Origin: Eledone cirrhosa
Lineage: Eukaryota
Direction: 5' to 3'
Assembly (NCBI GenBank): GCA_964016885.1
Contig: OZ024740.1
Coordinates: 183,148,001-183,212,000, forward strand
DNA length: 64,000 nucleotides
The notes under the pieces were generated by a model. It searched no databases. It was not told the origin of the DNA and was given only the letters and a program-made list of their open reading frames with translations. The translations under genes and the position numbers were made by a program. Positions 4,383 through 58,721 of this stretch are shown here, one piece after another. How positions within the stretch are numbered: position 1 is the first letter of the stretch; each line of letters starts with the position of its first letter.

Positions 4383-4553
4383 TATATAATATATATATAT
4401 ATATATTTAATATATATATATAATATATATAAATATTTAATATATATATATATGTATATATAATATATATATATTTAATATATATATATATATATATCTA
4501 TATATATATATATATATCTATATCTCTATATATATATATATATTTAATATATA

Positions 4554-5890: not shown

Positions 5891-5939
5891 GATTCTACAG
5901 GACTAGAACTGTTTCATTCTTTACAAATCATCAGGAATC
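5891..5939 (-). ncRNA. Type I hammerhead ribozyme
   Basis: Minus: GATTC-CTGATGA-TTTGTAAAGAAT-GAAA-CAG ttctagtc CT-GTA-GAATC. Confidence 0.7.
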
Positions 5940-5946
5940 TCCTGAT

Positions 5947-5995
5947 GATTCCTGATGATTTCTAAAGAATGAAACAGTTCTAGTCCTGTAGAATC
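5947..5995 (+). ncRNA. Type I hammerhead ribozyme
   Basis: GATTC-CTGATGA-TTTC taaa GAAT-GAAA-CAG ttctagtc CT-GTA-GAATC; helix I GATTC/GAATC, helix III ACAG/CTGT. Confidence 0.8.
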
Positions 5996-9023: not shown

Positions 9024-9299
9024 TCTGATTCTATCTCTCTGATTTCAGCCAGAGAACTGCATACGGTGTATGAAGTGTTGTATGTGACTCTCTAGTTCTT
9101 CGGGGTTGCACGTGCGGGACACATTTCTCATCACCCGTACCAAATCTGGCTACAATCAGAGAGATAGAATCACAGTGTATAGAGGAGCCAGAACCAAATG
9201 GGAAAAAATGGTAAATAATGACATAAATGGGACCTGCCAGACAAAGAAAGGAATCCCCAGTCACTGAAGAGGTCACAGAGTGTATATTTTGGCCCCCCA

Positions 9300-13911: not shown

Positions 13912-13963
13912 GAAACTTAAGTAAGTATGCTAATTATTATAATTTTCTTATTTTACCTCTTTC

Positions 13964-14010
<47 letters not shown>

Positions 14011-14093
14011 GTTATTCCGGGTTGAATCGGAGGTAACCACAGTAAGTAAGGTACTCAATACATAGCAGAGTATAAAAGTTTTAATATAGATGA

Positions 14094-14142
14094 GATTCTA
14101 CAGGACTAGAACTGTTTCATTCATTAGAAATCATCAGGAATC
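14094..14142 (-). ncRNA. Type I hammerhead ribozyme
   Basis: Reverse complement of 14897-14945. Confidence 0.8.
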
Positions 14143-14896
14143 TGGGTATCAAAAAATAAATATGGTATTTATAGGTCTCTACAAGTGGTAGGAGAGGGTG
14201 GGGAGTGGGATGGGTGCAGGTCATTGGTTGATAGAAAAGGGAATTCATTAAAAGCTAATTCTACAAAGCTATAGTTTATTTTTATTTATCTATGTTTTTA
14301 GAGTAACAAGGGCAGACAGAATTTTATAAACAGGTTCCGGATGGCATACCATTCCTTGTCATTAAGTTTCTCTTAAGCTAACAGATGTCTATAAAATCAG
14401 TGGGGGGTCAGTCATGGTCGATAGAATTAAAGAAAAGGGAGATTCTTTAAAAGCTAAAATCATTAAGGTTCTACTAAGTGACAAAGGTCTAGAGAATTCT
14501 GCAGACAGATTCAAAATACTGAGTGCATATCTTACTATTATCTTCGAAGATAAATTGTCACTTAGTAGAACCTTAATGATTTTAGCTTTTAAAGAATCTC
14601 CCTTTTCTTTAATTCTATCGACCATGACTGACCCCCCACTGATTTTATAGACATCTGTTAGCTTAAGAGAAACTTAATGACAAGGAATGGTATGCCATCC
14701 GGAACCTGTTTATAGAATTCTGTCTGCCCTTGTTACTCTAAAAACATAAATAAATAAAAATAAACTATAGCTTTGTAGAATTAGCTTTTAATGAATTCCC
14801 TTTTCTATCAACCAATGACCTGCACCCATCCCACTCCCCACCCTCTCCTACCACTTGTAGAGACCTATAAATACCATATTTATTTTTTGATACCCA

Positions 14897-14945
14897 GATT
14901 CCTGATGATTTCTAATGAATGAAACAGTTCTAGTCCTGTAGAATC
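14897..14945 (+). ncRNA. Type I hammerhead ribozyme
   Basis: GATTC-CTGATGA-TTTC taat GAAT-GAAA-CAG ttctagtc CT-GTA-GAATC. Confidence 0.8.
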
Positions 14946-14956
14946 TCATCTATATT

Positions 14957-15106
<150 letters not shown>

Positions 15107-19024: not shown

Positions 19025-19157
19025 AGCATATATTTGAGGGACATGCGCCTTACTACAACATGGCCCTCAAGCGTAGTGGTTTCCGGGAGGAAATGTCCTA
19101 CTGTCCAGCTTCCATTAGCGGAACCAGCATGCGACAACGCCGCTCACGCAACGTAAC

Positions 19158-19847
19158 ATGGTTCAATCCCCCCCCCCCCACAACGCCGAGGTGACAACTC
19201 CTATCGGGAAAATTTTCTTTAGGCTCATTGAAAAACACTTCCCAGTACAACACCGCTACCACAACATAATTAACAAAAATACCATCAAACTCTCCTACAG
19301 CACCACACCAAACTTTGCACAAAACATCGTCTCCTCTAACAACAAAAAACTCAACCCCCATGGAAGAAATAAACGAAATAGCAGTGGAGAGCCGACCAGG
19401 AGGTGCAACTGTCCTAATGGATCCATTTGCCCCCTCGACAACAGATGCAGAGATCGTAAGGTGATCTACCAGTGCAACGTGAGGACGGACAACTCCAACA
19501 AAGCCTATATAGGATTAACCGCATGTGACTTCAAGACCCGGCTATACCAACACAGACATACCTTCCGAAACCCGGCCCAACGTCACGCCACTACACTTTC
19601 AGGCCACATATGGGACCTCAAGGATAACAATATTACCTATGATCTCACTTGGAGATTACTGTCCAGAGCCAACTCTTACACGGGAGGACGCCGTCCGTGC
19701 AATTTATGCTCGGAGGAAACTTTACAAATGCTGTTCTCGATGGACCAACTCCTAAACAAGAAAGATGAACTGGTAACTGCATGTAAACACCGATTGTGTA
19801 GGACTTACCTCGCCCTCAAACCCCATAACGACCCGGGTGTGGGGTAG
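19158..19847 (+). CDS. PLE Cys-rich linker and GIY-YIG endonuclease fragment
   Basis: KLSYSTTPN, CNCPNGSICPLDNRC, VIYQC, YIGLT, FKTRLYQH, CNLCSEE, CKHR. Confidence 0.8.
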   Translation: MVQSPPPHNAEVTTPIGKIFFRLIEKHFPVQHRYHNIINKNTIKLSYSTTPNFAQNIVSSNNKKLNPHGRNKRNSSGEPTRRCNCPNGSICPLDNRCRDRKVIYQCNVRTDNSNKAYIGLTACDFKTRLYQHRHTFRNPAQRHATTLSGHIWDLKDNNITYDLTWRLLSRANSYTGGRRPCNLCSEETLQMLFSMDQLLNKKDELVTACKHRLCRTYLALKPHNDPGVG

Positions 19848-22044: not shown

Positions 22045-24520
22045 AAAGTAAAATAAATAAGTCAAATGTTTAAAATTTAGCTTCGTTTATTACTGCTATA
22101 TATATTTCGGTGACAGCCATCTTTGGCTGTGACCTCTTCAAGCAGTCCGAATTAGTGTGGTATAGACAAGTACATATGTTGTTGAGGTGTATAACCTTGT
22201 CAATACTCTGATATACCCAGTTACTGGTTGGGTTGTTATTTCACTGAGAACTGGAATCATATGAATTCAAACAAACGAATTTCAGTGTCAAAGGGCCTCT
22301 TCTCATCTCATTGGTCAGTTGTTAGAACATTCCTCATTCAAAAGTCTATAGAAATTCGTTCTGAGGCAAGCCAATCAGTAGTTGTTGTTCTTGTTATTGT
22401 TAGGTACATCTGACCTCAATTATTGTGTTGGTAGTGTTGTTATTGTTGTAGTTAGCTTAGAAAATTGATAACGTGGTAGAAGGAACAAGGTGGTAAAGGA
22501 ACAAATTAACAAAAAAATGTCAAACTTCCCATTGGTCGGTTTTGAGAGCATTCCTCAGTCAGAAGTCTATATGGGGTGACGCTCCCTGTAGTGTTTTCTG
22601 TTTGCTATTGTTAAGTACATTTGACTTCTACCCTTATTTCGGTAGTGTTGTTGGTGTTGTGGTCAGCCTATGTCTTGCTGCTGCTGACAAGTTAGAAGTA
22701 TCTATGTGTGTTTTTTCCTCCCTCCTGCCACCATCTCCTGTGGTGGTGGTGGTGGGGGTGCGGGTGTTCTTCCATGTATATGAAGAAATATAAGGCAATA
22801 AATGAAGAAAACAGAAAATAAATAATAAATAGAGAATAAAGAATAAATGAAAAATTGGTGAAAATGTAATTAAAATGAATATGGAGAACTGAAAAATAAA
22901 ATGAAGATTCAAATAAAGTCGGATGAAGTGTGTTTGTGCTATAAACAATCTCAAGGTCAGAAATATGTTGGATAGATTGGTATGAGGAACAAGATGTTAA
23001 AATAATAAAAGAATAAGATATTCAAACAAATTGTGTTTGTGTTATAATCAATCTCAACTTAAAAATAAATATAGGGTGATACAGTGAAGAGAACAGAAAA
23101 CAAATAACAAATTAATAAAGAGAAATCAAGATTTAAAATTGAAAATTGAAAACCAGAAATCAAGTAAATTAAAATGTGTTTGTGTTATATAGATGTTGGC
23201 CAAATTATAATGGCTGTGTCCGATTCAATCTCTAGGCTATCATGGTGTCTGCTCATGCTGGGTTGTTCCCTATGGCTTGAGGGGAATTCTCAACATAGGG
23301 TGTTGTTACTGCCCATATAGCTTGATGGAGGTCTAGCCGAGAGGTGTCTACATGTTCTGCAGAAGTCCCTATAGCTTGAGGGGAGTTCACATCTTCTTGT
23401 GTTGCTACTGTCCATATATCTTGAGGAAGGTCCCGGCTCTAATGTGTCTGCATGCCCCGAAGAAGTCGGTTCTGAGGTTTATCAGGCCGCTTCCACCTTT
23501 TAGTATCTCGATGGTCTCGTTCAGGCATAGTTTGCATATGCAAGATCCCCCTTTATCGGGTGGTACTTTCCTGATTATGTACCAGGCCAGAGAGTACGGG
23601 GTCCTGTCCAGCTTAAGTTTCCAGATCAGGTCGGAGAGAGCCGTGCTTTTCCTTTTGGCCTCCTTATTGAATGTATAGCGATGGCTGTCTTTAAAGCTCG
23701 TTGATGTGGCTCCTATGTAGAGGTGTTCGGAGTTGGGGGTTTTAACCCTACAACCGTATACTAGGGTCTTCTTAAGGCATTCATTACCAAAGGGGCATGA
23801 TTCGGGTTTCTGCAGTTGCAGAGGGTGGTCGACCTCTGCGTGCCTATATTGGGGTTCCCGTTAGGTGTTACATGGTGGTCTTCCCCCAGGCACGGTGGGG
23901 GTCCCCAGGTTGTTTGGGTTTCTTGGGTGGGCTCTGGGTCCCCTCTTCCCTCCTTCCACATGGTTCTGCTGAGTGGTTGTATTGCCATCTTCTGGTTGTG
24001 TGTGGTTTTTAAGCCTACTCCTGTTGATGCTAGCTATGTGTTGGGCCAGATTTCTCGTGGTGGAATACGAGAGCTTCACAGTGTGTCTGTTGAAGATCCT
24101 GTGGTAACTATGGTCCCTCGGGAAGCATTTATCAAGTGCTCCAAAGAATGATCGGGCCAAGCTGTTCTTTAGGGCCGCTGAGTAGGGTGGGTTGTACCAC
24201 GTAATTTTTCTGTGTCTCTTCCTATATGTGTGGGTTGGGGGCGTCGTGATTTTTTGGAGATTTGTTGGGTTGCTGGTGGTTCCCGCACTGTTGCTTCCCC
24301 TTTGGGCGCTATGCTTTTTGTTATCTTCATGGCCCGAATCTGTCGAGTGGTCGTTGCCCGCGCTGGGAGATCTATCGTGGGGTGGTTACCCGTTCCCCCC
24401 ACCACGTGTCCTGCGGTTGGGGTCGTCGGTCCTGGGGTGGTTAGCGTCACCCCTGAGACTGCTACTCATATTGGGTTTCATCTCATGGTTAACCGTACTT
24501 GTCACCAACACCCGTGTGGT
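22045..24520 (-). mobile_element. Decayed Penelope-like element (Neptune-like endonuclease region ~23430-24220) with a long 3' region ending in an HHR
   Basis: Minus: RKITWYNPP, HRIFNRHTVKLSYSTT, CNCRNP, YIGATS, CILHMQ/LNETIEIL across frameshifts. Confidence 0.8.
22092..22146 (-). ncRNA. Minimal type I hammerhead (UUGAAGA core)
   Basis: Minus: ACTGC-TTGAAGA-GGTCACAGCC aaagat GGCTGTCACC-GAAA-TATAT-ATA-GCAGT. Confidence 0.75.
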
Positions 24521-26889: not shown

Positions 26890-29570
26890 TATCATCATGG
26901 CTTGGCTTCGCGAACGAATATTAGAAGGGTTGTCCGCGTCGTCTGCAGGCACGCTCATGACTGACAAGTCCGATGCCGGAAAGGTAGATCCGTGAGCAGT
27001 GTCCACGGGTGAAGGTAACGTCCGGTCTGGTGTCAGAGGCGGCTTGAGCCTTCCTTCTGCGTCTCTTGTCTTTTTGCGCGTCTCTTCTGTCTCCCTCAAA
27101 CTCCCTGACCGCGTTGAAGATCATTTGGTGCCAGGCATCATGGTTCGCAGCCAGGTCTGACCAGCATTGGTGGTCAACATGACATGTGGTGAGAGACTTT
27201 TTGAGGCAGTCGTCGTAGCGTTTCTTCGAGGCTCCTCTCTCTCGATGGCCGGTGGAGATTTCGCTAAACAGGGCAATCTTAGGAAGGCGATGGTTCTCCA
27301 TTCTGGAGACATGCCCTGCGCATCGGAGGTGGTACTTCAGTAGCATGGCTTCAATGCTGGGGATCTCGGCCTGCACCAGAACTTCAACGTTTGTGACGAA
27401 GTCACTCCAGCGAATGTTGAGGCTGGTGCGGAGACATCGCTGCTGGAAGCGCTCGAGGAGACGGATGTGACTGCGGTAGGTGACCCAGGTCTCCGAGCCG
27501 TATAGGAGAGTGGTGAGAACCACGGCCCTGTAGTCACTGAACCTTGTCTTGTTCTTCAGGATTTTGTTGTGCCAAACACGTTTATACAATCTGCCAAAGG
27601 AGCTATTTGCCATAGAGAGTCAGTTGTCAATTTCTTTGTCGATCCTTGCATCGGATAAGATGATGCAGCCCAGGTATGTGAACTGCTGTTTGATTTCAGT
27701 TCGGTATCACAGATAGTGATGTAGGGTGGGCGGTATTCTTCTTGGGGGGCAGGCTGGTAAAGACCCTCCGTCTTCTTGAGGCTAACCTCCAGGCCAAAGA
27801 GCCGTGAGGCGTCCGCAAAACAGGACGTGATGCGCTGCAGAGCTCGCTCTGTGTGGGCGACGAGGGCAGCGTCGTCCGCGAAGAGAAGGTCTCGGATCAG
27901 CCTCTCCTGGGTCTTGGTATGGGCTTGTAGGCGCCGTCCATACGGTACCTGACATACACCTCATCCCCATCTTCCAGATCTTCAGTTGCATACTTGAGCA
28001 TCATGCTGAAGAAGATGATGAAGAGAGTCGGTGCCAGGACACAATCCTGCTTCACGCCGTTGGAGATGGGGAAGGGATCCGACAGGTCACCGTTGAGTCT
28101 TATCTGGCCGCGCTAGTTCTCGTGCAGCTGGATCACCATCTGTAGAAACTTGGTGGGACAACCAAGTCGTTCCAGGATGAGCCATAGTCCTGTCCTGCTC
28201 ACTGTGTCAAATGCTTTTGTGATGTCGACAAAAGCAGCATAGAGTCCCTTGTTTTGTTCTCGGCACTTCTCCTGGAGTTGGCGGAGGACGAACACCACGT
28301 CCGCCGTGCCTCTGTTGGCTCTGAAGCCACACTGGCTCTCTGGGAGGTTTTCTTCAGCGATAGTTGGTACGAGCCTGTTGAGCAGGATCCTGGCAAGTAC
28401 TTTGAAAGCGATGGAGAGTAGGGTGATTCCCCGGTAGTTGCAGCAGTCAGACTTTTCACCCTTGTTCTTGTACAGGGTTATGATGACGGCGTCGCGAAGA
28501 TCCTGTGGCAGCTTACCCTGCTCCCAACAGCAGACAAGAAAATCGTGTAGCTAGTCGTGGAGCGTCGGACCTCCATTCTTCGAGATTTCTGGTACGATGC
28601 TGTCAACTCCTGCTGATTTGCGACTCTTGAGTTGTTCTATGGCTTCAGTCGTCTCTTCGAGGGTAGATGGTTCGTCGAGCTCCTCTTTGAGTGGAAGTTG
28701 GGGAACGCGATGGATGGCAGCGTCCTGTACGGTGCGGTCAGCACTGAAGAGGCTTTGGAAGTGCTCGGATCAGCGAGCGAGGATGGAGGTGTTATCAGTG
28801 AGGAGGTCCTCTCCATCTTAACTGCGCAGGGGACTCTGGACATGGTGGGTGGGGCCATACACTGCTTTCAGAGTCTCATAAAAGCCCCTATAGTCTCCGA
28901 GGTCAGCGCACAGCTAGGTTCTCCACGCCAGGTGGTCCCACCACTCGTTCTGTATTTCTCTGAGTTTGCGCTGTAGGGTGCTGCATGCGCGTCGAAAGGT
29001 ATCTTTCTTTACAGGACAGGTTGGTTGTGCAAGGTGGGCCTGATGAGCGGCCCTCTTCTTTGCTAGTAAGTCATGGATCTCCTTGTCATTTTCATCAAAC
29101 CAGTCCTTGTTTTTCTTTTTTGTGTGCCCAAGAACTTCCTCAGATATCTTAAGGATGGCTGATTTCAGGTTCTCCCACAAGGTGTCTGGGGTGTGGTCAT
29201 CAGTGCAAGGGGATTCGTCTAGTTTTTGCTGCAGGTCTGCTTGGAACTTGGCTTTCACCTCCTCCCGGCACAGGCTGCCGACGTTGAGTTTCTTTACGGG
29301 GTTACCTTTCTTCTTGGGTTTGGGTTTGAACTGCAGTCTGAGCTTGCAGCGGACGAAGCGATTGTCAGTGTGGCATTCTGCCACTGGGCATCACTCTAGT
29401 GTGTAGCTCATCTTTCAGGTCCCGTTGGCGCACAAGCACATAGTCAAGTAGATGCCAATATGTGGACCGAGGATGCATCCAAGTTGTTTTCAGGCGGTCT
29501 GTCTGTTGGAAGATTGTGTTAGTAATGGCAAGTTGGTGCTCTGTGCAGAACTCGAGCAGGAGGCGCCCGA
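26890..29570 (-). mobile_element. Decayed RTE (BovB-like) LINE: APE endonuclease end, RT, C-terminus
   Basis: TTWMHPRS, DWFDEND, FVDITKAFDTV, QGCVLAPTLF, FADD, LLYGSETW, RLPK, GLVSH; ATG-repeat tail at ~26890. Confidence 0.9.
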
Positions 29571-30530: not shown

Positions 30531-31731
30531 CAGGGAAAAATGCGGGCGCATGTAAAGAAATATTCTTAAATTAATAAACCTAGAAAAGTAAAGGACAAGT
30601 TATTACACCTGGAAAAGTAAAGGACAAGAACACTTCTTAAAATATTGCAGCTATAGTATAAATTTGAATAATAAAAAATATTTGATTTAAATATAAATAG
30701 AAAGTGATAAATTCTAATAATACAGTTGACTCTCTAATTGATAATAATACTAATTTATGATCATTTATTTAATTTTGTGATCCTAATTTAAACCATAGTG
30801 GTTGGGTCATTAAATAAATATACTTTATTTTACTTTACTAAATGGGACTGAAAAAATGAGTGACAATTATAAACATCAAATAAAACAAAATTTTGGCGTG
30901 TAAATGACACTAACAATTAATTAATAATTAATTAGGGAGCCAACTGTAATGATAAATAATATCAAATTATAATTGTTTAATAATGAAATTTAAGACCTGT
31001 CAGAGATCAAAATAACCAATCTACATTTTTAGGTAGAGTAAAATTAGACTACAATTAATAATTAAACATTGTCTAATTCAACAGTTCATCTAATGAATTG
31101 ATGAATTCACTATAATTGATTGATTCACTATAAATGAATAATTGATGAATTGACTTTTACCTAATTTTGCCCCTTGAGATGTTGAATTTTACTATATTAT
31201 AAAAAAAATCTGTAATACTCATAAAAAGTGCAATTATATGATGCACTGTTTTTGATTTATTTTACTGCATTATTTTATAACTAAATTTTTAAAAATATAA
31301 TTTTATTAAGAGTGAAAATTTTTAAATATCTTATAACATAAGTTAATAAATTGTACATATTAATTATTATTATTATTAATTAATTATTGTACAAATTATT
31401 GTACAAATTATTGTACAAATTTTATTTTAAAAAGATTAATTTGTATACACCAAGAAAAAAATTAAGTATACAGTAGTCAACTCTCCCTATAAGACAATCA
31501 TTTTTCCAGTCCTTTAAAGTGATATTTTTTTATCAATTAACTTATAATTATTTATTTTTAGTTTTATAATCTAAATATTTTTTTTCAAATTTAGACTTTA
31601 GCTGCAATATTTTAAGAAGTTTTAAGAAGTTTTCTTGTCTTTTACCTTTCCAGGTGTAATAACTTGTCCTTTACTTTTCTAGGTTTATTAATTTAAGAAT
31701 ATTTCTTTACATGCGCCCGCATTTTTCCCTG
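30531..31731. mobile_element. Non-autonomous DNA transposon (MITE) with ~125-bp TIRs flanked by TA
   Basis: CAGGGAAAAATGCGGGCGCATGTAAAG... / ...CTTTACATGCGCCCGCATTTTTCCCTG. Confidence 0.85.
30723..30946. mobile_element. Nested small MITE (Tc1/mariner-pogo-like ends, TA TSD)
   Basis: TA-CAGTTGACTCTCTAAT...ATTAGGGAGCCAACTG-TA. Confidence 0.65.
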
Positions 31732-31844
31732 TAATCCACTTTTTTTCCAGGCAATGCAAGGATATTATATTAATATTAATAAAAATATTTATCAACAAAT
31801 AAGTTAAATAATAATGGATAGGAAGAAGAGCAGATAGGAAAAGT

Positions 31845-31916
31845 AATCAGAGTGGAAATCGAACCCACGACCTTCGGATTGCCGGTCCGCTGCTCTACCG
31901 ACTGAGCTACCTGACC
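31845..31916 (-). tRNA. tRNA-like sequence (GGC anticodon position); likely pseudo-tRNA or SINE head
   Basis: GGTCAGG-TAGCTCAGTCGGTAGAGC...GGTCGTGGGTTCGATTTCCAC-TCTGATT; A and B boxes present; lacks U33 and has several G-U pairs in the acceptor stem. Confidence 0.6.
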
Positions 31917-32221: not shown

Positions 32222-32258
<37 letters not shown>

Positions 32259-32458
32259 NNNNNNNNNNNNNNNNNNNNNNNNNNNNNNNNNNNNNNNNNN
32301 NNNNNNNNNNNNNNNNNNNNNNNNNNNNNNNNNNNNNNNNNNNNNNNNNNNNNNNNNNNNNNNNNNNNNNNNNNNNNNNNNNNNNNNNNNNNNNNNNNNN
32401 NNNNNNNNNNNNNNNNNNNNNNNNNNNNNNNNNNNNNNNNNNNNNNNNNNNNNNNNNN
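32259..32458. other. Assembly gap (200 N)
   Basis: N run. Confidence 1.
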
Positions 32459-35400
32459 TGCTTTCATCGAGAATGACACAGCTAGAGACTTATAGAATAC
32501 TTAGCTGTGTACAGGAACTGGTTTGAAAGAGCGGTTGCCGGTCCGGCAGAAATTAGAAATTGGAATAAATGCTCTGAAATAGCGATATATATGTGAATAT
32601 AGACACAGAATATTCGAAAATATTCTGTATGTTTATAATAAACATTTTGAAGACCTAATCGCTATAGAATAGAATACGTCACGTATTACAATTAGATTCT
32701 CGATAAAAGCAAGGGAAGTAAGTCTACGCGTTTCATTCTTGTTAGAATTCATCAGGACTACATATCCAGTGCTTTCATCGAGAATGACACAGCTAGAGAC
32801 TTATAGAATACTTAGCTGTGTACAGGAACTGGTTTGAAAGAGCGGTTGCCGGTCCGGCAGAAATTAGAAATTGGAATAAATGCTCTGAAATAGCGATATA
32901 TATGTGAATATAGACACAGAATATTCGAAAATATTCTGTATGTTTATAATAAACATTTTGAAGACCTAATCGCTATAGAATAGAATACGTCACGTATTAC
33001 AATTAGATTCTCGATAAAAGCAAGGGAAGTAAGTCTACGCGTTTCATTCTTGTTAGAATTCATCAGGACTACATATCCAGTGCTTTCATCGAGAATGACA
33101 CAGCTAGAGACTTATAGAATACTTAGCTGTGTACAGGAACTGGTTTGAAAGAGCGGTTGCCGGTCCGGCAGAAATTAGAAATTGGAATAAATGCTCTGAA
33201 ATAGCGATATATATGTGAATATAGACACAGAATATTCGAAAATATTCTGTATGTTTATAATAAACATTTTGAAGACCTAATCGCTATAGAATAGAATACG
33301 TCACGTATTACAATTAGATTCTCGATAAAAGCAAGGGAAGTAAGTCTACGCGTTTCATTCTTGTTAGAATTCATCAGGACTACATATCCAGTGCTTTCAT
33401 CGAGAATGACACAGCTAGAGACTTATAGAATACTTAGCTGTGTACAGGAACTGGTTTGAAAGAGCGGTTGCCGGTCCGGCAGAAATTAGAAATTGGAATA
33501 AATGCTCTGAAATAGCGATATATATGTGAATATAGACACAGAATATTCGAAAATATTCTGTATGTTTATAATAAACATTTTGAAGACCTAATCGCTATAG
33601 AATAGAATACGTCACGTATTACAATTAGATTCTCGATAAAAGCAAGGGAAGTAAGTCTACGCGTTTCATTCTTGTTAGAATTCATCAGGACTACATATCC
33701 AGTGCTTTCATCGAGAATGACACAGCTAGAGACTTATAGAATACTTAGCTGTGTACAGGAACTGGTTTGAAAGAGCGGTTGCCGGTCCGGCAGAAATTAG
33801 AAATTGGAATAAATGCTCTGAAATAGCGATATATATGTGAATATAGACACAGAATATTCGAAAATATTCTGTATGTTTATAATAAACATTTTGAAGACCT
33901 AATCGCTATAGAATAGAATACGTCACGTATTACAATTAGATTCTCGATAAAAGCAAGGGAAGTAAGTCTACGCGTTTCATTCTTGTTAGAATTCATCAGG
34001 ACTACATATCCAGTGCTTTCATCGAGAATGACACAGCTAGAGACTTATAGAATACTTAGCTGTGTACAGGAACTGGTTTGAAAGAGCGGTTGCCGGTCCG
34101 GCAGAAATTAGAAATTGGAATAAATGCTCTGAAATAGCGATATATATGTGAATATAGACACAGAATATTCGAAAATATTCTGTATGTTTATAATAAACAT
34201 TTTGAAGACCTAATCGCTATAGAATAGAATACGTCACGTATTACAATTAGATTCTCGATAAAAGCAAGGGAAGTAAGTCTACGCGTTTCATTCTTGTTAG
34301 AATTCATCAGGACTACATATCCAGTGCTTTCATCGAGAATGACACAGCTAGAGACTTATAGAATACTTAGCTGTGTACAGGAACTGGTTTGAAAGAGCGG
34401 TTGCCGGTCCGGCAGAAATTAGAAATTGGAATAAATGCTCTGAAATAGCGATATATATGTGAATATAGACACAGAATATTCGAAAATATTCTGTATGTTT
34501 ATAATAAACATTTTGAAGACCTAATCGCTATAGAATAGAATACGTCACGTATTACAATTAGATTCTCGATAAAAGCAAGGGAAGTAAGTCTACGCGTTTC
34601 ATTCTTGTTAGAATTCATCAGGACTACATATCCAGTGCTTTCATCGAGAATGACACAGCTAGAGACTTATAGAATACTTAGCTGTGTACAGGAACTGGTT
34701 TGAAAGAGCGGTTGCCGGTCCGGCAGAAATTAGAAATTGGAATAAATGCTCTGAAATAGCGATATATATGTGAATATAGACACAGAATATTCGAAAATAT
34801 TCTGTATGTTTATAATAAACATTTTGAAGACCTAATCGCTATAGAATAGAATACGTCACGTATTACAATTAGATTCTCGATAAAAGCAAGGGAAGTAAGT
34901 CTACGCGTTTCATTCTTGTTAGAATTCATCAGGACTACATATCCAGTGCTTTCATCGAGAATGACACAGCTAGAGACTTATAGAATACTTAGCTGTGTAC
35001 AGGAACTGGTTTGAAAGAGCGGTTGCCGGTCCGGCAGAAATTAGAAATTGGAATAAATGCTCTGAAATAGCGATATATATGTGAATATAGACACAGAATA
35101 TTCGAAAATATTCTGTATGTTTATAATAAACATTTTGAAGACCTAATCGCTATAGAATAGAATACGTCACGTATTACAATTAGATTCTCGATAAAAGCAA
35201 GGGAAGTAAGTCTACGCGTTTCATTCTTGTTAGAATTCATCAGGACTACATATCCAGTGCTTTCATCGAGAATGACACAGCTAGAGACTTATAGAATACT
35301 TAGCTGTGTACAGGAACTGGTTTGAAAGAGCGGTTGCCGGTCCGGCAGAAATTAGAAATTGGAATAAATGCTCTGAAATAGCGATATATATGTGAATATA

Positions 35401-37724
35401 GACACAGAATATTCGAAAATATTCTGTATGTTTATAATAAACATTTTGAAGACCTAATCGCTATAGAATAGAATACGTCACGTATTACAATTAGATTCTC
35501 GATAAAAGCAAGGGAAGTAAGTCTACGCGTTTCATTCTTGTTAGAATTCATCAGGACTACATATCCAGTGCTTTCATCGAGAATGACACAGCTAGAGACT
35601 TATAGAATACTTAGCTGTGTACAGGAACTGGTTTGAAAGAGCGGTTGCCGGTCCGGCAGAAATTAGAAATTGGAATAAATGCTCTGAAATAGCGATATAT
35701 ATGTGAATATAGACACAGAATATTCGAAAATATTCTGTATGTTTATAATAAACATTTTGAAGACCTAATCGCTATAGAATAGAATACGTCACGTATTACA
35801 ATTAGATTCTCGATAAAAGCAAGGGAAGTAAGTCTACGCGTTTCATTCTTGTTAGAATTCATCAGGACTACATATCCAGTGCTTTCATCGAGAATGACAC
35901 AGCTAGAGACTTATAGAATACTTAGCTGTGTACAGGAACTGGTTTGAAAGAGCGGTTGCCGGTCCGGCAGAAATTAGAAATTGGAATAAATGCTCTGAAA
36001 TAGCGATATATATGTGAATATAGACACAGAATATTCGAAAATATTCTGTATGTTTATAATAAACATTTTGAAGACCTAATCGCTATAGAATAGAATACGT
36101 CACGTATTACAATTAGATTCTCGATAAAAGCAAGGGAAGTAAGTCTACGCGTTTCATTCTTGTTAGAATTCATCAGGACTACATATCCAGTGCTTTCATC
36201 GAGAATGACACAGCTAGAGACTTATAGAATACTTAGCTGTGTACAGGAACTGGTTTGAAAGAGCGGTTGCCGGTCCGGCAGAAATTAGAAATTGGAATAA
36301 ATGCTCTGAAATAGCGATATATATGTGAATATAGACACAGAATATTCGAAAATATTCTGTATGTTTATAATAAACATTTTGAAGACCTAATCGCTATAGA
36401 ATAGAATACGTCACGTATTACAATTAGATTCTCGATAAAAGCAAGGGAAGTAAGTCTACGCGTTTCATTCTTGTTAGAATTCATCAGGACTACATATCCA
36501 GTGCTTTCATCGAGAATGACACAGCTAGAGACTTATAGAATACTTAGCTGTGTACAGGAACTGGTTTGAAAGAGCGGTTGCCGGTCCGGCAGAAATTAGA
36601 AATTGGAATAAATGCTCTGAAATAGCGATATATATGTGAATATAGACACAGAATATTCGAAAATATTCTGTATGTTTATAATAAACATTTTGAAGACCTA
36701 ATCGCTATAGAATAGAATACGTCACGTATTACAATTAGATTCTCGATAAAAGCAAGGGAAGTAAGTCTACGCGTTTCATTCTTGTTAGAATTCATCAGGA
36801 CTACATATCCAGTGCTTTCATCGAGAATGACACAGCTAGAGACTTATAGAATACTTAGCTGTGTACAGGAACTGGTTTGAAAGAGCGGTTGCCGGTCCGG
36901 CAGAAATTAGAAATTGGAATAAATGCTCTGAAATAGCGATATATATGTGAATATAGACACAGAATATTCGAAAATATTCTGTATGTTTATAATAAACATT
37001 TTGAAGACCTAATCGCTATAGAATAGAATACGTCACGTATTACAATTAGATTCTCGATAAAAGCAAGGGAAGTAAGTCTACGCGTTTCATTCTTGTTAGA
37101 ATTCATCAGGACTACATATCCAGTGCTTTCATCGAGAATGACACAGCTAGAGACTTATAGAATACTTAGCTGTGTACAGGAACTGGTTTGAAAGAGCGGT
37201 TGCCGGTCCGGCAGAAATTAGAAATTGGAATAAATGCTCTGAAATAGCGATATATATGTGAATATAGACACAGAATATTCGAAAATATTCTGTATGTTTA
37301 TAATAAACATTTTGAAGACCTAATCGCTATAGAATAGAATACGTCACGTATTACAATTAGATTCTCGATAAAAGCAAGGGAAGTAAGTCTACGCGTTTCA
37401 TTCTTGTTAGAATTCATCAGGACTACATATCCAGTGCTTTCATCGAGAATGACACAGCTAGAGACTTATAGAATACTTAGCTGTGTACAGGAACTGGTTT
37501 GAAAGAGCGGTTGCCGGTCCGGCAGAAATTAGAAATTGGAATAAATGCTCTGAAATAGCGATATATATGTGAATATAGACACAGAATATTCGAAAATATT
37601 CTGTATGTTTATAATAAACATTTTGAAGACCTAATCGCTATAGAATAGAATACGTCACGTATTACAATTAGATTCTCGATAAAAGCAAGGGAAGTAAGTC
37701 TACGCGTTTCATTCTTGTTAGAAT
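32459..37724 (-). repeat. 311-bp hammerhead-containing tandem array, left arm (~16.9 units, 16 intact HHRs on the minus strand)
   Basis: CTTTCATCGAG at 32461, 32772...; TCATCAG cores from 32749 to 37414 at 311-bp spacing. Confidence 0.97.
32721..32759 (-). ncRNA. Minimal type I hammerhead ribozyme (first of 16 on the minus strand)
   Basis: Reverse complement of 37742-37780. Confidence 0.85.
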
Positions 37725-40700
37725 GAAAGCACTGGATATGTAGTCCTGATGAATTCTAACAAGAATGAAACGCGTAGACTTACTTCCCTTGCTTTTATCG
37801 AGAATCTAATTGTAATACGTGACGTATTCTATTCTATAGCGATTAGGTCTTCAAAATGTTTATTATAAACATACAGAATATTTTCGAATATTCTGTGTCT
37901 ATATTCACATATATATCGCTATTTCAGAGCATTTATTCCAATTTCTAATTTCTGCCGGACCGGCAACCGCTCTTTCAAACCAGTTCCTGTACACAGCTAA
38001 GTATTCTATAAGTCTCTAGCTGTGTCATTCTCGATGAAAGCACTGGATATGTAGTCCTGATGAATTCTAACAAGAATGAAACGCGTAGACTTACTTCCCT
38101 TGCTTTTATCGAGAATCTAATTGTAATACGTGACGTATTCTATTCTATAGCGATTAGGTCTTCAAAATGTTTATTATAAACATACAGAATATTTTCGAAT
38201 ATTCTGTGTCTATATTCACATATATATCGCTATTTCAGAGCATTTATTCCAATTTCTAATTTCTGCCGGACCGGCAACCGCTCTTTCAAACCAGTTCCTG
38301 TACACAGCTAAGTATTCTATAAGTCTCTAGCTGTGTCATTCTCGATGAAAGCACTGGATATGTAGTCCTGATGAATTCTAACAAGAATGAAACGCGTAGA
38401 CTTACTTCCCTTGCTTTTATCGAGAATCTAATTGTAATACGTGACGTATTCTATTCTATAGCGATTAGGTCTTCAAAATGTTTATTATAAACATACAGAA
38501 TATTTTCGAATATTCTGTGTCTATATTCACATATATATCGCTATTTCAGAGCATTTATTCCAATTTCTAATTTCTGCCGGACCGGCAACCGCTCTTTCAA
38601 ACCAGTTCCTGTACACAGCTAAGTATTCTATAAGTCTCTAGCTGTGTCATTCTCGATGAAAGCACTGGATATGTAGTCCTGATGAATTCTAACAAGAATG
38701 AAACGCGTAGACTTACTTCCCTTGCTTTTATCGAGAATCTAATTGTAATACGTGACGTATTCTATTCTATAGCGATTAGGTCTTCAAAATGTTTATTATA
38801 AACATACAGAATATTTTCGAATATTCTGTGTCTATATTCACATATATATCGCTATTTCAGAGCATTTATTCCAATTTCTAATTTCTGCCGGACCGGCAAC
38901 CGCTCTTTCAAACCAGTTCCTGTACACAGCTAAGTATTCTATAAGTCTCTAGCTGTGTCATTCTCGATGAAAGCACTGGATATGTAGTCCTGATGAATTC
39001 TAACAAGAATGAAACGCGTAGACTTACTTCCCTTGCTTTTATCGAGAATCTAATTGTAATACGTGACGTATTCTATTCTATAGCGATTAGGTCTTCAAAA
39101 TGTTTATTATAAACATACAGAATATTTTCGAATATTCTGTGTCTATATTCACATATATATCGCTATTTCAGAGCATTTATTCCAATTTCTAATTTCTGCC
39201 GGACCGGCAACCGCTCTTTCAAACCAGTTCCTGTACACAGCTAAGTATTCTATAAGTCTCTAGCTGTGTCATTCTCGATGAAAGCACTGGATATGTAGTC
39301 CTGATGAATTCTAACAAGAATGAAACGCGTAGACTTACTTCCCTTGCTTTTATCGAGAATCTAATTGTAATACGTGACGTATTCTATTCTATAGCGATTA
39401 GGTCTTCAAAATGTTTATTATAAACATACAGAATATTTTCGAATATTCTGTGTCTATATTCACATATATATCGCTATTTCAGAGCATTTATTCCAATTTC
39501 TAATTTCTGCCGGACCGGCAACCGCTCTTTCAAACCAGTTCCTGTACACAGCTAAGTATTCTATAAGTCTCTAGCTGTGTCATTCTCGATGAAAGCACTG
39601 GATATGTAGTCCTGATGAATTCTAACAAGAATGAAACGCGTAGACTTACTTCCCTTGCTTTTATCGAGAATCTAATTGTAATACGTGACGTATTCTATTC
39701 TATAGCGATTAGGTCTTCAAAATGTTTATTATAAACATACAGAATATTTTCGAATATTCTGTGTCTATATTCACATATATATCGCTATTTCAGAGCATTT
39801 ATTCCAATTTCTAATTTCTGCCGGACCGGCAACCGCTCTTTCAAACCAGTTCCTGTACACAGCTAAGTATTCTATAAGTCTCTAGCTGTGTCATTCTCGA
39901 TGAAAGCACTGGATATGTAGTCCTGATGAATTCTAACAAGAATGAAACGCGTAGACTTACTTCCCTTGCTTTTATCGAGAATCTAATTGTAATACGTGAC
40001 GTATTCTATTCTATAGCGATTAGGTCTTCAAAATGTTTATTATAAACATACAGAATATTTTCGAATATTCTGTGTCTATATTCACATATATATCGCTATT
40101 TCAGAGCATTTATTCCAATTTCTAATTTCTGCCGGACCGGCAACCGCTCTTTCAAACCAGTTCCTGTACACAGCTAAGTATTCTATAAGTCTCTAGCTGT
40201 GTCATTCTCGATGAAAGCACTGGATATGTAGTCCTGATGAATTCTAACAAGAATGAAACGCGTAGACTTACTTCCCTTGCTTTTATCGAGAATCTAATTG
40301 TAATACGTGACGTATTCTATTCTATAGCGATTAGGTCTTCAAAATGTTTATTATAAACATACAGAATATTTTCGAATATTCTGTGTCTATATTCACATAT
40401 ATATCGCTATTTCAGAGCATTTATTCCAATTTCTAATTTCTGCCGGACCGGCAACCGCTCTTTCAAACCAGTTCCTGTACACAGCTAAGTATTCTATAAG
40501 TCTCTAGCTGTGTCATTCTCGATGAAAGCACTGGATATGTAGTCCTGATGAATTCTAACAAGAATGAAACGCGTAGACTTACTTCCCTTGCTTTTATCGA
40601 GAATCTAATTGTAATACGTGACGTATTCTATTCTATAGCGATTAGGTCTTCAAAATGTTTATTATAAACATACAGAATATTTTCGAATATTCTGTGTCTA

Positions 40701-43700
40701 TATTCACATATATATCGCTATTTCAGAGCATTTATTCCAATTTCTAATTTCTGCCGGACCGGCAACCGCTCTTTCAAACCAGTTCCTGTACACAGCTAAG
40801 TATTCTATAAGTCTCTAGCTGTGTCATTCTCGATGAAAGCACTGGATATGTAGTCCTGATGAATTCTAACAAGAATGAAACGCGTAGACTTACTTCCCTT
40901 GCTTTTATCGAGAATCTAATTGTAATACGTGACGTATTCTATTCTATAGCGATTAGGTCTTCAAAATGTTTATTATAAACATACAGAATATTTTCGAATA
41001 TTCTGTGTCTATATTCACATATATATCGCTATTTCAGAGCATTTATTCCAATTTCTAATTTCTGCCGGACCGGCAACCGCTCTTTCAAACCAGTTCCTGT
41101 ACACAGCTAAGTATTCTATAAGTCTCTAGCTGTGTCATTCTCGATGAAAGCACTGGATATGTAGTCCTGATGAATTCTAACAAGAATGAAACGCGTAGAC
41201 TTACTTCCCTTGCTTTTATCGAGAATCTAATTGTAATACGTGACGTATTCTATTCTATAGCGATTAGGTCTTCAAAATGTTTATTATAAACATACAGAAT
41301 ATTTTCGAATATTCTGTGTCTATATTCACATATATATCGCTATTTCAGAGCATTTATTCCAATTTCTAATTTCTGCCGGACCGGCAACCGCTCTTTCAAA
41401 CCAGTTCCTGTACACAGCTAAGTATTCTATAAGTCTCTAGCTGTGTCATTCTCGATGAAAGCACTGGATATGTAGTCCTGATGAATTCTAACAAGAATGA
41501 AACGCGTAGACTTACTTCCCTTGCTTTTATCGAGAATCTAATTGTAATACGTGACGTATTCTATTCTATAGCGATTAGGTCTTCAAAATGTTTATTATAA
41601 ACATACAGAATATTTTCGAATATTCTGTGTCTATATTCACATATATATCGCTATTTCAGAGCATTTATTCCAATTTCTAATTTCTGCCGGACCGGCAACC
41701 GCTCTTTCAAACCAGTTCCTGTACACAGCTAAGTATTCTATAAGTCTCTAGCTGTGTCATTCTCGATGAAAGCACTGGATATGTAGTCCTGATGAATTCT
41801 AACAAGAATGAAACGCGTAGACTTACTTCCCTTGCTTTTATCGAGAATCTAATTGTAATACGTGACGTATTCTATTCTATAGCGATTAGGTCTTCAAAAT
41901 GTTTATTATAAACATACAGAATATTTTCGAATATTCTGTGTCTATATTCACATATATATCGCTATTTCAGAGCATTTATTCCAATTTCTAATTTCTGCCG
42001 GACCGGCAACCGCTCTTTCAAACCAGTTCCTGTACACAGCTAAGTATTCTATAAGTCTCTAGCTGTGTCATTCTCGATGAAAGCACTGGATATGTAGTCC
42101 TGATGAATTCTAACAAGAATGAAACGCGTAGACTTACTTCCCTTGCTTTTATCGAGAATCTAATTGTAATACGTGACGTATTCTATTCTATAGCGATTAG
42201 GTCTTCAAAATGTTTATTATAAACATACAGAATATTTTCGAATATTCTGTGTCTATATTCACATATATATCGCTATTTCAGAGCATTTATTCCAATTTCT
42301 AATTTCTGCCGGACCGGCAACCGCTCTTTCAAACCAGTTCCTGTACACAGCTAAGTATTCTATAAGTCTCTAGCTGTGTCATTCTCGATGAAAGCACTGG
42401 ATATGTAGTCCTGATGAATTCTAACAAGAATGAAACGCGTAGACTTACTTCCCTTGCTTTTATCGAGAATCTAATTGTAATACGTGACGTATTCTATTCT
42501 ATAGCGATTAGGTCTTCAAAATGTTTATTATAAACATACAGAATATTTTCGAATATTCTGTGTCTATATTCACATATATATCGCTATTTCAGAGCATTTA
42601 TTCCAATTTCTAATTTCTGCCGGACCGGCAACCGCTCTTTCAAACCAGTTCCTGTACACAGCTAAGTATTCTATAAGTCTCTAGCTGTGTCATTCTCGAT
42701 GAAAGCACTGGATATGTAGTCCTGATGAATTCTAACAAGAATGAAACGCGTAGACTTACTTCCCTTGCTTTTATCGAGAATCTAATTGTAATACGTGACG
42801 TATTCTATTCTATAGCGATTAGGTCTTCAAAATGTTTATTATAAACATACAGAATATTTTCGAATATTCTGTGTCTATATTCACATATATATCGCTATTT
42901 CAGAGCATTTATTCCAATTTCTAATTTCTGCCGGACCGGCAACCGCTCTTTCAAACCAGTTCCTGTACACAGCTAAGTATTCTATAAGTCTCTAGCTGTG
43001 TCATTCTCGATGAAAGCACTGGATATGTAGTCCTGATGAATTCTAACAAGAATGAAACGCGTAGACTTACTTCCCTTGCTTTTATCGAGAATCTAATTGT
43101 AATACGTGACGTATTCTATTCTATAGCGATTAGGTCTTCAAAATGTTTATTATAAACATACAGAATATTTTCGAATATTCTGTGTCTATATTCACATATA
43201 TATCGCTATTTCAGAGCATTTATTCCAATTTCTAATTTCTGCCGGACCGGCAACCGCTCTTTCAAACCAGTTCCTGTACACAGCTAAGTATTCTATAAGT
43301 CTCTAGCTGTGTCATTCTCGATGAAAGCACTGGATATGTAGTCCTGATGAATTCTAACAAGAATGAAACGCGTAGACTTACTTCCCTTGCTTTTATCGAG
43401 AATCTAATTGTAATACGTGACGTATTCTATTCTATAGCGATTAGGTCTTCAAAATGTTTATTATAAACATACAGAATATTTTCGAATATTCTGTGTCTAT
43501 ATTCACATATATATCGCTATTTCAGAGCATTTATTCCAATTTCTAATTTCTGCCGGACCGGCAACCGCTCTTTCAAACCAGTTCCTGTACACAGCTAAGT
43601 ATTCTATAAGTCTCTAGCTGTGTCATTCTCGATGAAAGCACTGGATATGTAGTCCTGATGAATTCTAACAAGAATGAAACGCGTAGACTTACTTCCCTTG

Positions 43701-44164
43701 CTTTTATCGAGAATCTAATTGTAATACGTGACGTATTCTATTCTATAGCGATTAGGTCTTCAAAATGTTTATTATAAACATACAGAATATTTTCGAATAT
43801 TCTGTGTCTATATTCACATATATATCGCTATTTCAGAGCATTTATTCCAATTTCTAATTTCTGCCGGACCGGCAACCGCTCTTTCAAACCAGTTCCTGTA
43901 CACAGCTAAGTATTCTATAAGTCTCTAGCTGTGTCATTCTCGATGAAAGCACTGGATATGTAGTCCTGATGAATTCTAACAAGAATGAAACGCGTAGACT
44001 TACTTCCCTTGCTTTTATCGAGAATCTAATTGTAATACGTGACGTATTCTATTCTATAGCGATTAGGTCTTCAAAATGTTTATTATAAACATACAGAATA
44101 TTTTCGAATATTCTGTGTCTATATTCACATATATATCGCTATTTCAGAGCATTTATTCCAATTT
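37723..44164 (+). repeat. 311-bp hammerhead-containing tandem array, right arm (~20.7 units, 21 HHRs on the plus strand)
   Basis: Reverse complement of the left arm; CTGATGA cores from 37746 to 43966 at 311-bp spacing; runs into (TA)n. Confidence 0.97.
37742..37780 (+). ncRNA. Minimal type I hammerhead ribozyme (first of 21 on the plus strand); predicted cleavage after GUA at 37776
   Basis: AGTC-CTGATGA-ATTCT aaca AGAAT-GAAA-CGC-GTA-GACT; helix I AGTC/GACT, 5-bp helix II, palindromic helix III ACGCGT. Confidence 0.85.
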
Positions 44165-44204
44165 ATATATTTATATATATAAATATATATATATATATTT
44201 ATAT

Positions 44205-44255
<51 letters not shown>

Positions 44256-44303
44256 TATATATAAATATATATATATATAAATATATATATATATATTTAT
44301 ATA

Positions 44304-44873
44304 TGGAACAACAACAACACCCAAACAAACAACACTGACCTAAGAGAAGTATAAATAAATAAGTAAATTAAATTAAATAAAATAAGATAAATAAATACAT
44401 ACACAAGCACATAAACACACACTAGTCACCCAGCAGACACAACACTATACACACTAGTCACACATCACACATAACACTATACACACACGCAAACGCATGC
44501 GCAAAGAAGACAAAATAAAATAAGATAAACAAACAAGCAAATAAATAAATAAATATATAGACAGACTGAACAAAAAAAATGGCGTAGACATACAACACAA
44601 CAGGAGGAACAATGAATATAACACCACTGACGATGTTGCAGATGTGCAACGAAAGATTTATGTAAACTATATATATATGTGTTTGTCTATATTGTATCTG
44701 TATTATTTTTGACCGCCGGTCAGTCAATGGCAACATTGAGGACCGAGTAAGTTAGATCGCAGATATATATATATAAAAGACAGCGAGAAGCGAAAACCAA
44801 CCAAACAGTGAGTGTGTTCTGTTATTAATTCTGGCAATATTACGCAAATATGACCCTCCCCAAATATAACAAT
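44304..44873 (+). mobile_element. Solo PLE pseudo-LTR of the 10583-12812 family; HHR core at ~44622-44663
   Basis: Similar to 12250-12812; CTGACGA-T-GTTGCA gatg TGCAAC-GAAA-GATTTA. Confidence 0.85.
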
Positions 44874-57468: not shown

Positions 57469-58720
57469 TGGTGGTGCAGCGACTGCATCAACTGGATCCC
57501 GACACCAGAAAAGCTAACAGATATGCCTACAGCCTTGATGTAGTCGCTCTTTATACCTCGACTCCGGCGCTCCCGGCCGTTGATATACTGATGGAACGTG
57601 TCCAATCTACCGATCTACACTGCTTCGGGCTCACCCCCACTGACATCCACCAACACCTATCCGTCGTCGTTGAAAACACATAGTTCGGTTTTCTCGACCA
57701 AACATACCAGCAAACCACGGGGCTGCCCCTGGGCTCAAGCCTGTCGGGCGTGCTAGCGATCTCATATATGGACAGCGTCGAGCGCTAGGCACTCAACACC
57801 TGCCACCCTAATGCCGTCACCTTTTTCGCAAGGTACTTTGACGATATCCTGATGCTCACATCTTCCCAGGAGATGGCGAATGGAATTTATGAAACGTTCA
57901 ACAACACCGACGAGAATATTGATTTCAGTGTTGAACACTCCAGCGACGACGGGTCTCTAGCTCTCCTCGACTTCCGAATCAATATCACGAAGCAGGGAGG
58001 GATCCACACCAACTTCTACAGCAAGGCAGCCTGCAGGGAATTGTTCGTGCACTACAAGTCTGCCCTCCCTAAAAGTGCTAAAAGAGGATACATCACGAAC
58101 GAGATCACGCGGATTAAAAACAGATGCAGCGATTCCGTGAGTGGTGTCACCCACACCAAGCGATTCCTCAAATTGCTGGAGACGAACGGGTACCCTGCCT
58201 CGCTTGCAAACAGAGTAAGAGACACCAAACGCATGAGGCAGAGAAACACCCAAGGCAAGTGCTTCTTTAAAATACCACACCTGGACAGGAATACGACCAA
58301 CGCTATACGGAGAGAGGGCCTCGACATCCACCTGGCCCACACGGGCCCCTCCCTACGAAGATGTCTCTCCAGGAAACCCGGGAAATCGACTGACGCGTGT
58401 TCCCTCAGAAACTGTCCGATGCGCCATACGAACTCTTGCTTACGCACATACGTCGTGTATAAGGTAGAATGTGACAAGTGCAACCACTACTATATCGGTA
58501 GCACAATCCGGCCGCTACACATCCAGGTCAAGGAGCACATCAACACCAGGGCCTCGTCTTTCTGGAAATACATAACCAAATGGGGAAACAAAGACGGAAG
58601 ACCCATTGTCACAGTGCTAGCGAAAGAACGTAAAGTCGGCACGTTACGAATCAAGGAAGCACTTTGGATCAAACGTCTAGGGCCACAAATAAAAAATCGA
58701 TCCGAAAGAATCGAAATGAG
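57469..58720 (+). pseudogene. Penelope-like RT plus GIY-YIG ORF with in-frame stops
   Basis: SLDVVALYTS, YQQTTGLPLGSSLSGVLA, FARYFDDI, LALLDF, NGYP, VVYKVEC..C..YYIGSTIRPL, LRIKEALWIK. Confidence 0.9.
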
Positions 58721-58721
58721 G

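What the first reader, a model, noticed from the sequence alone, without database searches (positions are those of the whole stretch)
32460..32770. The 311-nt unit is almost entirely self-complementary, like a viroid-like or branched structured RNA
Seen in each unit: long-range pair GCTTTCATCGAGAAT/ATTCTCGATAAAAGC enclosing most of the non-ribozyme part; hairpins ACACAGCTA/TAGCTGTGT, TGCCGG-T-CCGGCA, ACAGAATATT-CGAA-AATATTCTGT, ATGTTTAT-A-ATAAACAT and AATACGT-C-ACGTATT; and a TAGCGAT/ATCGCTA clamp. This density suggests selection on RNA structure rather than an ordinary satellite, with the HHR left as a separate domain (inference).
Basis: partly seen in the sequence, partly recalled or inferred. 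Interest (0 to 1): 0.75.

Follow-up and report, generated by a model that had tools for sequence, protein, structure and literature searches.

The report
Structured retrozyme copied in mirrored arrays
This 311-base repeat belongs to a known kind of jumping element that carries a predicted self-cutting hammerhead RNA; its stems are kept by paired base changes in relatives, and its copies sit as back-to-back arrays whose two fixed end points likely record a Penelope retrotransposon enzyme copying one small, probably circular, RNA onto both sides of a cut.

Summary
All seven stems exist. The unit folds better than shuffles (circular z -4.2, both strands), but only about 60% of bases pair, close to shuffled values, so 'almost entirely self-complementary' and 'viroid-like' overstate it. 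Selection on structure is real: an older family (about 68% identical) keeps the stems, and 22 of 52 pairs change on both sides. The long helix extends stem I of a type I hammerhead found on one strand only. The element is a metazoan non-LTR retrozyme, a known class, with over 11,000 hammerhead-core matches genome-wide. The window holds one insertion: 16.9 and 20.7 identical units head-to-head, with TA microsatellite at the visible end. In 102 of 102 scorable two-arm arrays one arm ends at site A (position 127-140) and the other at site B (164-173), about 35 nt apart: the Penelope 'tail'. Both arms share one haplotype in 64 of 65 arrays. Most likely a Penelope reverse transcriptase primes both target strands on one RNA and runs round a circle; a linear multimer is the main rival. 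Expression, cleavage, circles and the partner enzyme are untested. The scan noted this two-end geometry before in other repeat families.

The parts
32459..37724 (-). Left arm: 16.9 head-to-tail 311-nt units, hammerhead strand on -. Its outer (3') end is hidden by the 200-N gap; predicted to be an A end (unit position 127-140)
37723..44164 (+). Right arm: 20.7 units, hammerhead strand on +, 3' end at unit position 168 (site B, with tail), running into TA microsatellite
37723..37724 (.). Head-to-head junction of the two 5'-truncated arms (unit positions 288 and 258), 2-nt overlap
32704..32770 (-). Type I hammerhead of the first unit: CUGAUGA, stem II AUUC/GAAU, GAAA, one-pair stem III with palindromic ACGCGU; predicted cut after GUA, between 32725 and 32724. 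One per unit
   Evidence: sequence; Rfam HH9 E 0.22, 17.8 bits, below the gathering score of 52
32460..32474 (-). One strand of the 15-bp helix (partner 32696-32710) that extends hammerhead stem I and closes the rest of the unit; 9 of 15 pairs show two-sided changes
32696..32710 (-). Partner strand of the 15-bp helix
32605..32645 (-). Two adjacent hairpins (AUGUUU/AAACAU and CAGAAUAUU/AAUAUUCUG) just upstream of site A, kept with compensatory changes in family B
32559..32593 (-). 35-nt 'tail' between arm-end site A (position 131, window 32594) and site B (position 166, window 32559); its 3' part is predicted single-stranded in both families
32224..32258 (.). (AT)n left of the assembly gap, likely the left half of the target
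32259..32458 (.). 200-N assembly gap hiding the left end of the array
44164..44304 (.). TA microsatellite flanking the right end (target)

Best explanation
The unit is a non-coding hammerhead-carrying repeat (a non-LTR retrozyme) whose branched RNA fold is conserved, and the window holds one recent insertion of two back-to-back arrays that a Penelope-type reverse transcriptase-endonuclease likely made by priming both strands of a TA target on one RNA template, probably a monomer circle. Steps. (1) Arrays are transcribed (inferred; no RNA data). (2) Hammerheads cut after GUA, probably as dimers through the ACGCGU palindrome, and monomers are ligated into 311-nt circles (inferred from described retrozymes). 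(3) The long helix holds stem I and the monomer ends together; the hairpins and the open loop at positions 80-190 would be the signal that the enzyme reads (fold shown by covariation; role inferred). (4) The enzyme nicks both strands of (TA)n; one 3' end starts at site A (131, with AU microhomology to 140), the other at site B (166) (end geometry shown; enzyme inferred). (5) Each cDNA runs a random length, up to about 20 rounds, and the two are joined at 0-5 nt overlaps or with short filler (junctions shown; rolling circle inferred).
For: Class: 310-312 nt tandem units, GC 35%, no stop-free frame over 59 aa, type I hammerhead on one strand; 1,307 and 10,296 matches to two hammerhead-core patterns against 5 and 0 in reversed controls. 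Fold: family B majority z -7.1; 95.5% of 1,033 cells paired, 22 of 52 pairs with two-sided change, 0 of 500 shuffles, slid controls 40-48%. Strand: GU 59 cells against AC 11 (21 against 10 pair types, p 0.07); paired-site transitions fixed in whole arrays keep pairing 7 to 3, single-unit ones 8 to 20 (Fisher p 0.03, post hoc). Penelope footprint: 32 of 32 and 70 of 70 scorable two-arm arrays have one A and one B end, none AA or BB; family B uses the same two ends; 1,029 exact B-end/TA junctions. Inverted 5'-truncated copies, a 30-40 bp tail at one end and (TA)n targets are the described PLE footprint (PMC8557442), and a purified PLE protein cuts and extends both strands from two internal start sites that bound the tail (PMC11167929). 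One template: both arms share a haplotype in 64 of 65 arrays, while two arrays share one with p 0.075; 19 of 90 arrays carry a haplotype seen once. No stop at the ribozyme cut: 4 of 148 and 2 of 66 5' ends lie within 5 nt of it (expected 4.8 and 2.1). Unit variants are mirrored between arms in 1 of 29 variant-bearing in-register unit pairs.
Against: No RNA evidence: cleavage, circles and transcription were not shown. L270 has a second known haplotype in the outermost two units of both arms, and L246 switches at one site within one arm; a mosaic linear transcript or later gene conversion explains these more simply than a monomer circle. Four of the longest arms carry one variant in 2-3 non-adjacent units, a sign of block duplication after insertion or of assembly error. 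In vitro, the anole PLE used uncleaved RNA and needed no ribozyme cut (PMC11167929), and 8 of 9 frog retrozyme dimers did not cleave (bioRxiv 2026.07.22.740005). No autonomous element sharing the A-B region was found. The covariation rests on two clades and their subfamilies, not on 20 independent lineages, and 38 of the 52 pairs came from RNAalifold on the same alignment. Polishing of the assembly can make tandem units look more alike than they are.
Confidence: 0.62

Rival explanations
1. Same element, fold and Penelope enzyme, but the template is an uncut linear multimer transcribed from an existing array; the ribozyme is slow or a passenger and circles are a by-product.
For: L270 mosaic in register in both arms and L246; weak one-pair stem III, and a U-U at the base of stem II in the commonest subfamilies; uncleaved RNA was the main substrate in vitro (PMC11167929); absence of 5' stops at the cut site fits equally.
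Against: Linear copying can only shorten arrays and does not readily fix a private variant in all units of both arms, seen in up to 19 of 90 arrays; 28 of 29 variant-bearing unit pairs are not mirrored; stems I and II keep compensatory changes.
Confidence: 0.24
2. Short one- or two-unit insertions are made by the Penelope enzyme and then grow in place by unequal crossing-over, as satellites do (the route proposed in bioRxiv 2026.07.22.740005).
For: Repeated variants at spaced positions in four long arms; family B insertions are 1-2 units per arm.
Against: The longest arrays are the youngest (35 of 35 full units identical in the window), while the older family B (5.9% pairwise difference) is short (loci held to 1.5 kb flanks); only 4 of 90 arrays show such blocks; arm lengths do not depart from an exponential.
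Confidence: 0.1
3. A viroid-like replicon that copies RNA to RNA and is only secondarily integrated.
For: Size, branched fold and hammerhead; 340-nt closed contigs (310 + 30) in three other runs.
Against: Ribozyme on one polarity only; 60% paired; strict PLE-type ends; the three runs also hold traces of another high-copy repeat of this genome with TA flanks, so trace host DNA explains the contigs.
Confidence: 0.03
4. Ordinary satellite or assembly fold-back artefact; hairpins are chance products of AT-rich palindromes.
For: Fraction paired is not above shuffles; 2 of 36 local stretches fold as well; array abuts a gap and is 100% homogeneous.
Against: Two-sided changes in 22 of 52 pairs; 102 of 102 inverted arrays have unlike, fixed ends and their own junctions and flanks.
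Confidence: 0.01

Closest known systems
Metazoan non-LTR retrozymes (Cervera and de la Pena 2020, PMC7229834, parts 2-4 of 6 read and term search; Li, Clavereau and Pollet, bioRxiv 10.64898/2026.07.22.740005, parts 1-3 of 5 read and term search)
   Same: Tandem 170-400 nt units, GC under 50%, type I hammerhead in each unit, no ORF, no LTR features, predicted branched fold with a free ribozyme; one-pair stem III with palindromic loop as in the axolotl HHR_Amex1 motif; co-occurs with PLEs.
   Different: Neither paper's main text describes inverted two-arm arrays, fixed A/B ends or covariation outside the ribozyme (term searches; supplements not seen). Expression and cleavage are not shown here.
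Endonuclease-bearing Penelope-like elements (Craig et al. 2021, PMC8557442, 12 passages read; Frangieh et al. 2024, PMC11167929, parts 1-2 of 4 read)
   Same: Inverted 5'-truncated copy, 30-40 bp tail at one end only, (TA)n target, two internal start sites downstream of a hammerhead.
   Different: No RT or endonuclease ORF; arms are concatemers of up to about 20 short units; no sequence match to an autonomous element was found beyond the hammerhead core.
Hammerhead viroids and viroid-like circular RNAs (own knowledge; one passage in PMC7229834)
   Same: About 300 nt, branched fold, hammerhead.
   Different: Those carry ribozymes on both polarities, usually masked by pairing, and replicate RNA to RNA without a DNA array; here one polarity, free ribozyme and thousands of genomic units.

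Membership tests
Non-LTR retrozyme | Tandem units of about 150-450 bp, low GC | tested here: met
   310-312 nt (family B 318 nt), GC 35%
Non-LTR retrozyme | Type I hammerhead with intact core in each unit | tested here: met
   CUGAUGA / GAAA / GUA core with stems I and II covarying; Rfam match only below the gathering score
Non-LTR retrozyme | No protein coding capacity | tested here: met
   Longest stop-free stretch 59 aa in the concatemer
Non-LTR retrozyme | Dispersed multi-copy family | tested here: met
   Arrays on many contigs; 1,307 + 10,296 core matches; 1,029 exact B-end junctions
Non-LTR retrozyme | Stable self-paired fold with the ribozyme free | tested here: met
   z -4.2 (A) and -7.1 (B); stem II probability 0.92
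Non-LTR retrozyme | Self-cleavage of the transcript | not testable with these tools
   Needs in vitro transcription
Non-LTR retrozyme | Expressed as linear and circular monomers | tested here: inconclusive
   No RNA holder listed; closed contigs in X4-X6 explained by trace DNA
PLE-mobilised element | Inverted 5'-truncated arm, 30-40 bp tail at one end | tested here: met
   102 of 102 scorable two-arm arrays, modal ends 131 and 166
PLE-mobilised element | AT-rich or (TA)n target | tested here: met
   Flanks printed; one non-TA site (L224) shows an 11-bp duplication
PLE-mobilised element | Autonomous partner sharing the recognised region | tested here: inconclusive
   Young PLE family P shares only the hammerhead core and has a 67-nt tail; no shared upstream body in 17 single-arm family B loci
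Autonomous Penelope-like element | ORF with RT and GIY-YIG endonuclease | tested here: not met
   No ORF
Hammerhead viroid / viroid-like replicon | Ribozymes on both polarities | tested here: not met
   Core on one strand only by Rfam scan and by a hammerhead regex
Hammerhead viroid / viroid-like replicon | RNA-to-RNA replication without a DNA form | not testable with these tools
   Thousands of DNA units argue against; needs stranded RNA data

The most novel reading that the evidence does not exclude
These arrays are genomic fossils of rolling-circle reverse transcription: a dimeric Penelope enzyme grips one structured 311-nt RNA circle, starts one subunit at site A and the other at site B, and writes a concatemer onto each strand of the target, so the covarying fold at positions 80-190 is the minimal cis signal for PLE mobilisation. 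As a weaker extension, recurrent array-wide A-to-G changes in stems (positions 21, 219, 260, 277, each on 2-4 backgrounds) may be A-to-I edits of the circle fixed by copying.
Probability: 0.5. Interest if true: 0.72.

Novelty: new member of a known kind. Interest (0 to 1): 0.48.

Why it matters
What this family adds is evidence on two open points: which enzyme moves animal retrozymes, and how Penelope elements make their inverted, tailed insertions. A strict one-A-one-B rule, a single haplotype across both arms, and a fold proven by covariation define a 311-nt substrate with two mapped start sites. That can go straight into the published in vitro PLE assay to ask whether a circle yields concatemers. 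If so, it is a compact both-strand, multi-copy gene-writing signal.

Tried and rejected
Rfam at gathering thresholds finds only a tRNA-like sequence in the window; the hammerhead scores below threshold. Folding energy cannot tell the strand (z -4.2 both). RNA runs: no RNA holder listed. The 340-nt closed contigs in X4-X6 looked like circles, but the same runs hold traces of family P with TA flanks, so they are no evidence of RNA. Template jumps on cut linear monomers were rejected: no excess of 5' ends at the cut site. A-to-I editing looked strong in 35 arrays but in 90 arrays distinct fixed A>G and T>C changes were 7 and 6 (p 0.58); kept only as a lead. Partner search: family P, nine other hammerhead loci and 17 single-arm family B loci gave no shared A-B region; no genome-wide protein search of PLE families was run. 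L271 seemed a mosaic but is two neighbouring insertions; it stayed in the counts as one array. In one search the script mislabelled four rows as 'other end B': L270 and L280 are A+B, L263 and L302 are cut by the locus edge. Left out of the 102: the window itself (gap), 7 single or other arrays of 40, 6 cut and 4 one-orientation loci of 80. A 1.08-kb tandem of family P is not a newborn retrozyme: each unit ends in tail plus TA. Literature searches listed no paper on inverted two-end retrozyme arrays; one search returned mostly unrelated papers; supplements were not read. One search timed out and was rerun with fewer shuffles.

Full report
Observation. The finding covers the first of 16.9 identical 311-nt units (32459-37724), followed by 20.7 units in the opposite orientation (37723-44164). 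Folded as a circle, either strand is far more stable than dinucleotide shuffles (z -4.2; 0 of 200). But the listed stems hold 40% of the bases, the best fold pairs 60%, which 28 and 56 of 200 shuffles equal, and 2 of 36 other stretches of the window fold as well. The unit is structured, not 'almost entirely' paired.

What it is. The - strand of this arm carries a type I hammerhead: stem I, CUGAUGA, stem II, GAAA, a one-pair stem III with the palindrome ACGCGU, and a GUA site. The other strand has none, and no frame is open beyond 59 codons. The 15-bp helix continues stem I outward, so in a circle it both closes the ribozyme and encloses the rest. The host is a 3.0-Gb genome with 1,307 and 10,296 matches to two core patterns. 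These features match the non-LTR retrozymes of animals, reported as 170-400 nt, highly self-paired circles with a free ribozyme (PMC7229834).

Selection on the fold. A search near another hammerhead turned up an older family B, 318 nt and about 68% identical, and further subfamilies. Its majority sequence folds with z -7.1 and 8 of 8 copies tested with z below -5.3. I aligned 20 units (5 of family A, 15 of family B, picked by hand from those). Over 52 pairs, 95.5% of cells pair and 22 pairs change on both sides; shuffled and slid controls fall well short. The long helix (9 of 15 pairs), stems I and II and the two hairpins at 80-120 covary. The UGCCG and AGAGC helices are nearly invariant and so say little. 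The ACACAGCUA and AAUACG hairpins are replaced by other hairpins at similar places, and the clamp keeps its sequence but has probability 0.42 on the ribozyme strand. Limits: the sequences form two clades, and 38 pairs were taken from RNAalifold on this alignment. G-U outnumbers A-C (59 to 11 cells; 21 to 10 types, p 0.07), and transitions fixed in whole arrays keep pairing more often than single-unit ones (7:3 against 8:20, p 0.03, post hoc). Both point to the ribozyme strand.

Insertion anatomy. Of 40 arrays, 33 are head-to-head pairs; 32 could be scored and each has one arm ending at site A (127-140, mode 131) and one at site B (164-173, mode 166). Of 80 further loci picked by an exact B end, 70 have an inverted arm ending at A, none at B, 6 run off the stretch and 4 have one orientation (four labels corrected by eye). 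Flanks are TA-rich, inner 5' ends are scattered, and most junctions overlap by 0-5 nt; some use the long helix as homology (16 nt). Family B uses the same two ends. An inverted 5'-truncated copy, a 30-40 bp tail at one end and (TA)n targets are the described footprint of Penelope-like elements (PMC8557442), and a purified PLE protein extends both strands from two internal sites that bound the tail (PMC11167929). The window's right end is B (168), so its hidden left end should be A.

Template. Both arms share a haplotype in 64 of 65 arrays, against 0.075 for two random arrays; 99 of 860 units deviate from their array; 19 of 90 arrays have a haplotype seen once. 5' ends are not enriched at the ribozyme cut. 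Unit variants are mirrored between arms in 1 of 29 cases. A monomer circle explains private variants fixed across both arms and long young arrays. Against it: L270 and L246 are mosaics, four long arms show repeated variants, and in vitro work found uncut RNA sufficient. I put the circle model at 0.62, linear multimers at 0.24 and later expansion at 0.10.

Not shown. No RNA run holds the sequence on record; closed contigs in three runs are explained by trace host DNA. No partner enzyme was identified: a young PLE family in this window shares only the hammerhead core and has a 67-nt tail.

Novelty. New member of a known class. The main texts of the two retrozyme papers do not describe the inverted two-end arrays (supplements not seen) and six searches listed no such paper. 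The scan itself had noted the same geometry in other repeat families; I reached it before reading those notes. The additions here are covariation of the fold and the haplotype tests on the template.

Noticed in passing
window 13960-14960; also 5910-5990; L210:4721-7314: 5'-truncated inverted insertion of a young (99% identical) endonuclease-bearing Penelope-like family with a minimal hammerhead, a 67-nt tail on one arm only and TA flanks; 4,001 exact core matches; its stem II resembles that of the retrozyme.
   Followed up: partly
G000:C1:83679500-83699100 (L228-L230): Twelve head-to-tail pieces of about 1.08 kb of that PLE's 3' end, each ending in tail plus TA, then an inverted arm: serial insertion or local amplification.
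   Followed up: partly
L088:4507-4870 and L122-L181: Older 318-nt retrozyme family B with a different hammerhead (longer palindromic stem III) and arms of only 1-2 units, using the same two ends.
   Followed up: yes
L270 (G000:C1:136719500-136725900): Array whose outermost two hammerheads in both arms belong to another haplotype: mosaic template or repair of the palindrome centre.
   Followed up: partly
unit positions 21, 219, 260, 277: Array-wide A-to-G changes in stems recur on 2-4 haplotype backgrounds, three after a U; editing hot spots or wobble tolerance plus recombination.
   Followed up: partly
window 48855 (+), 51358 (-), 21275 (+), 7397 (-), 6181 (-): Further hammerhead-like cores of at least three other repeat families.
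   Followed up: no
window 8328-9044, 19119-19847, 23405-24385, 57789-58784: Open frames that read by eye as fragments of other Penelope-like elements; the two scanned had no Pfam hit.
   Followed up: no
window 31844-31916 (-) and 30540-31720: tRNA-like sequence (Rfam 57.5 bits), possibly a SINE head, beside an element with long inverted ends seen by eye.
   Followed up: no
window 4433-5775, 26921-29390: LINE-type reverse transcriptase fragments (RVT_1 E 4e-27 for 4433-5410).
   Followed up: no
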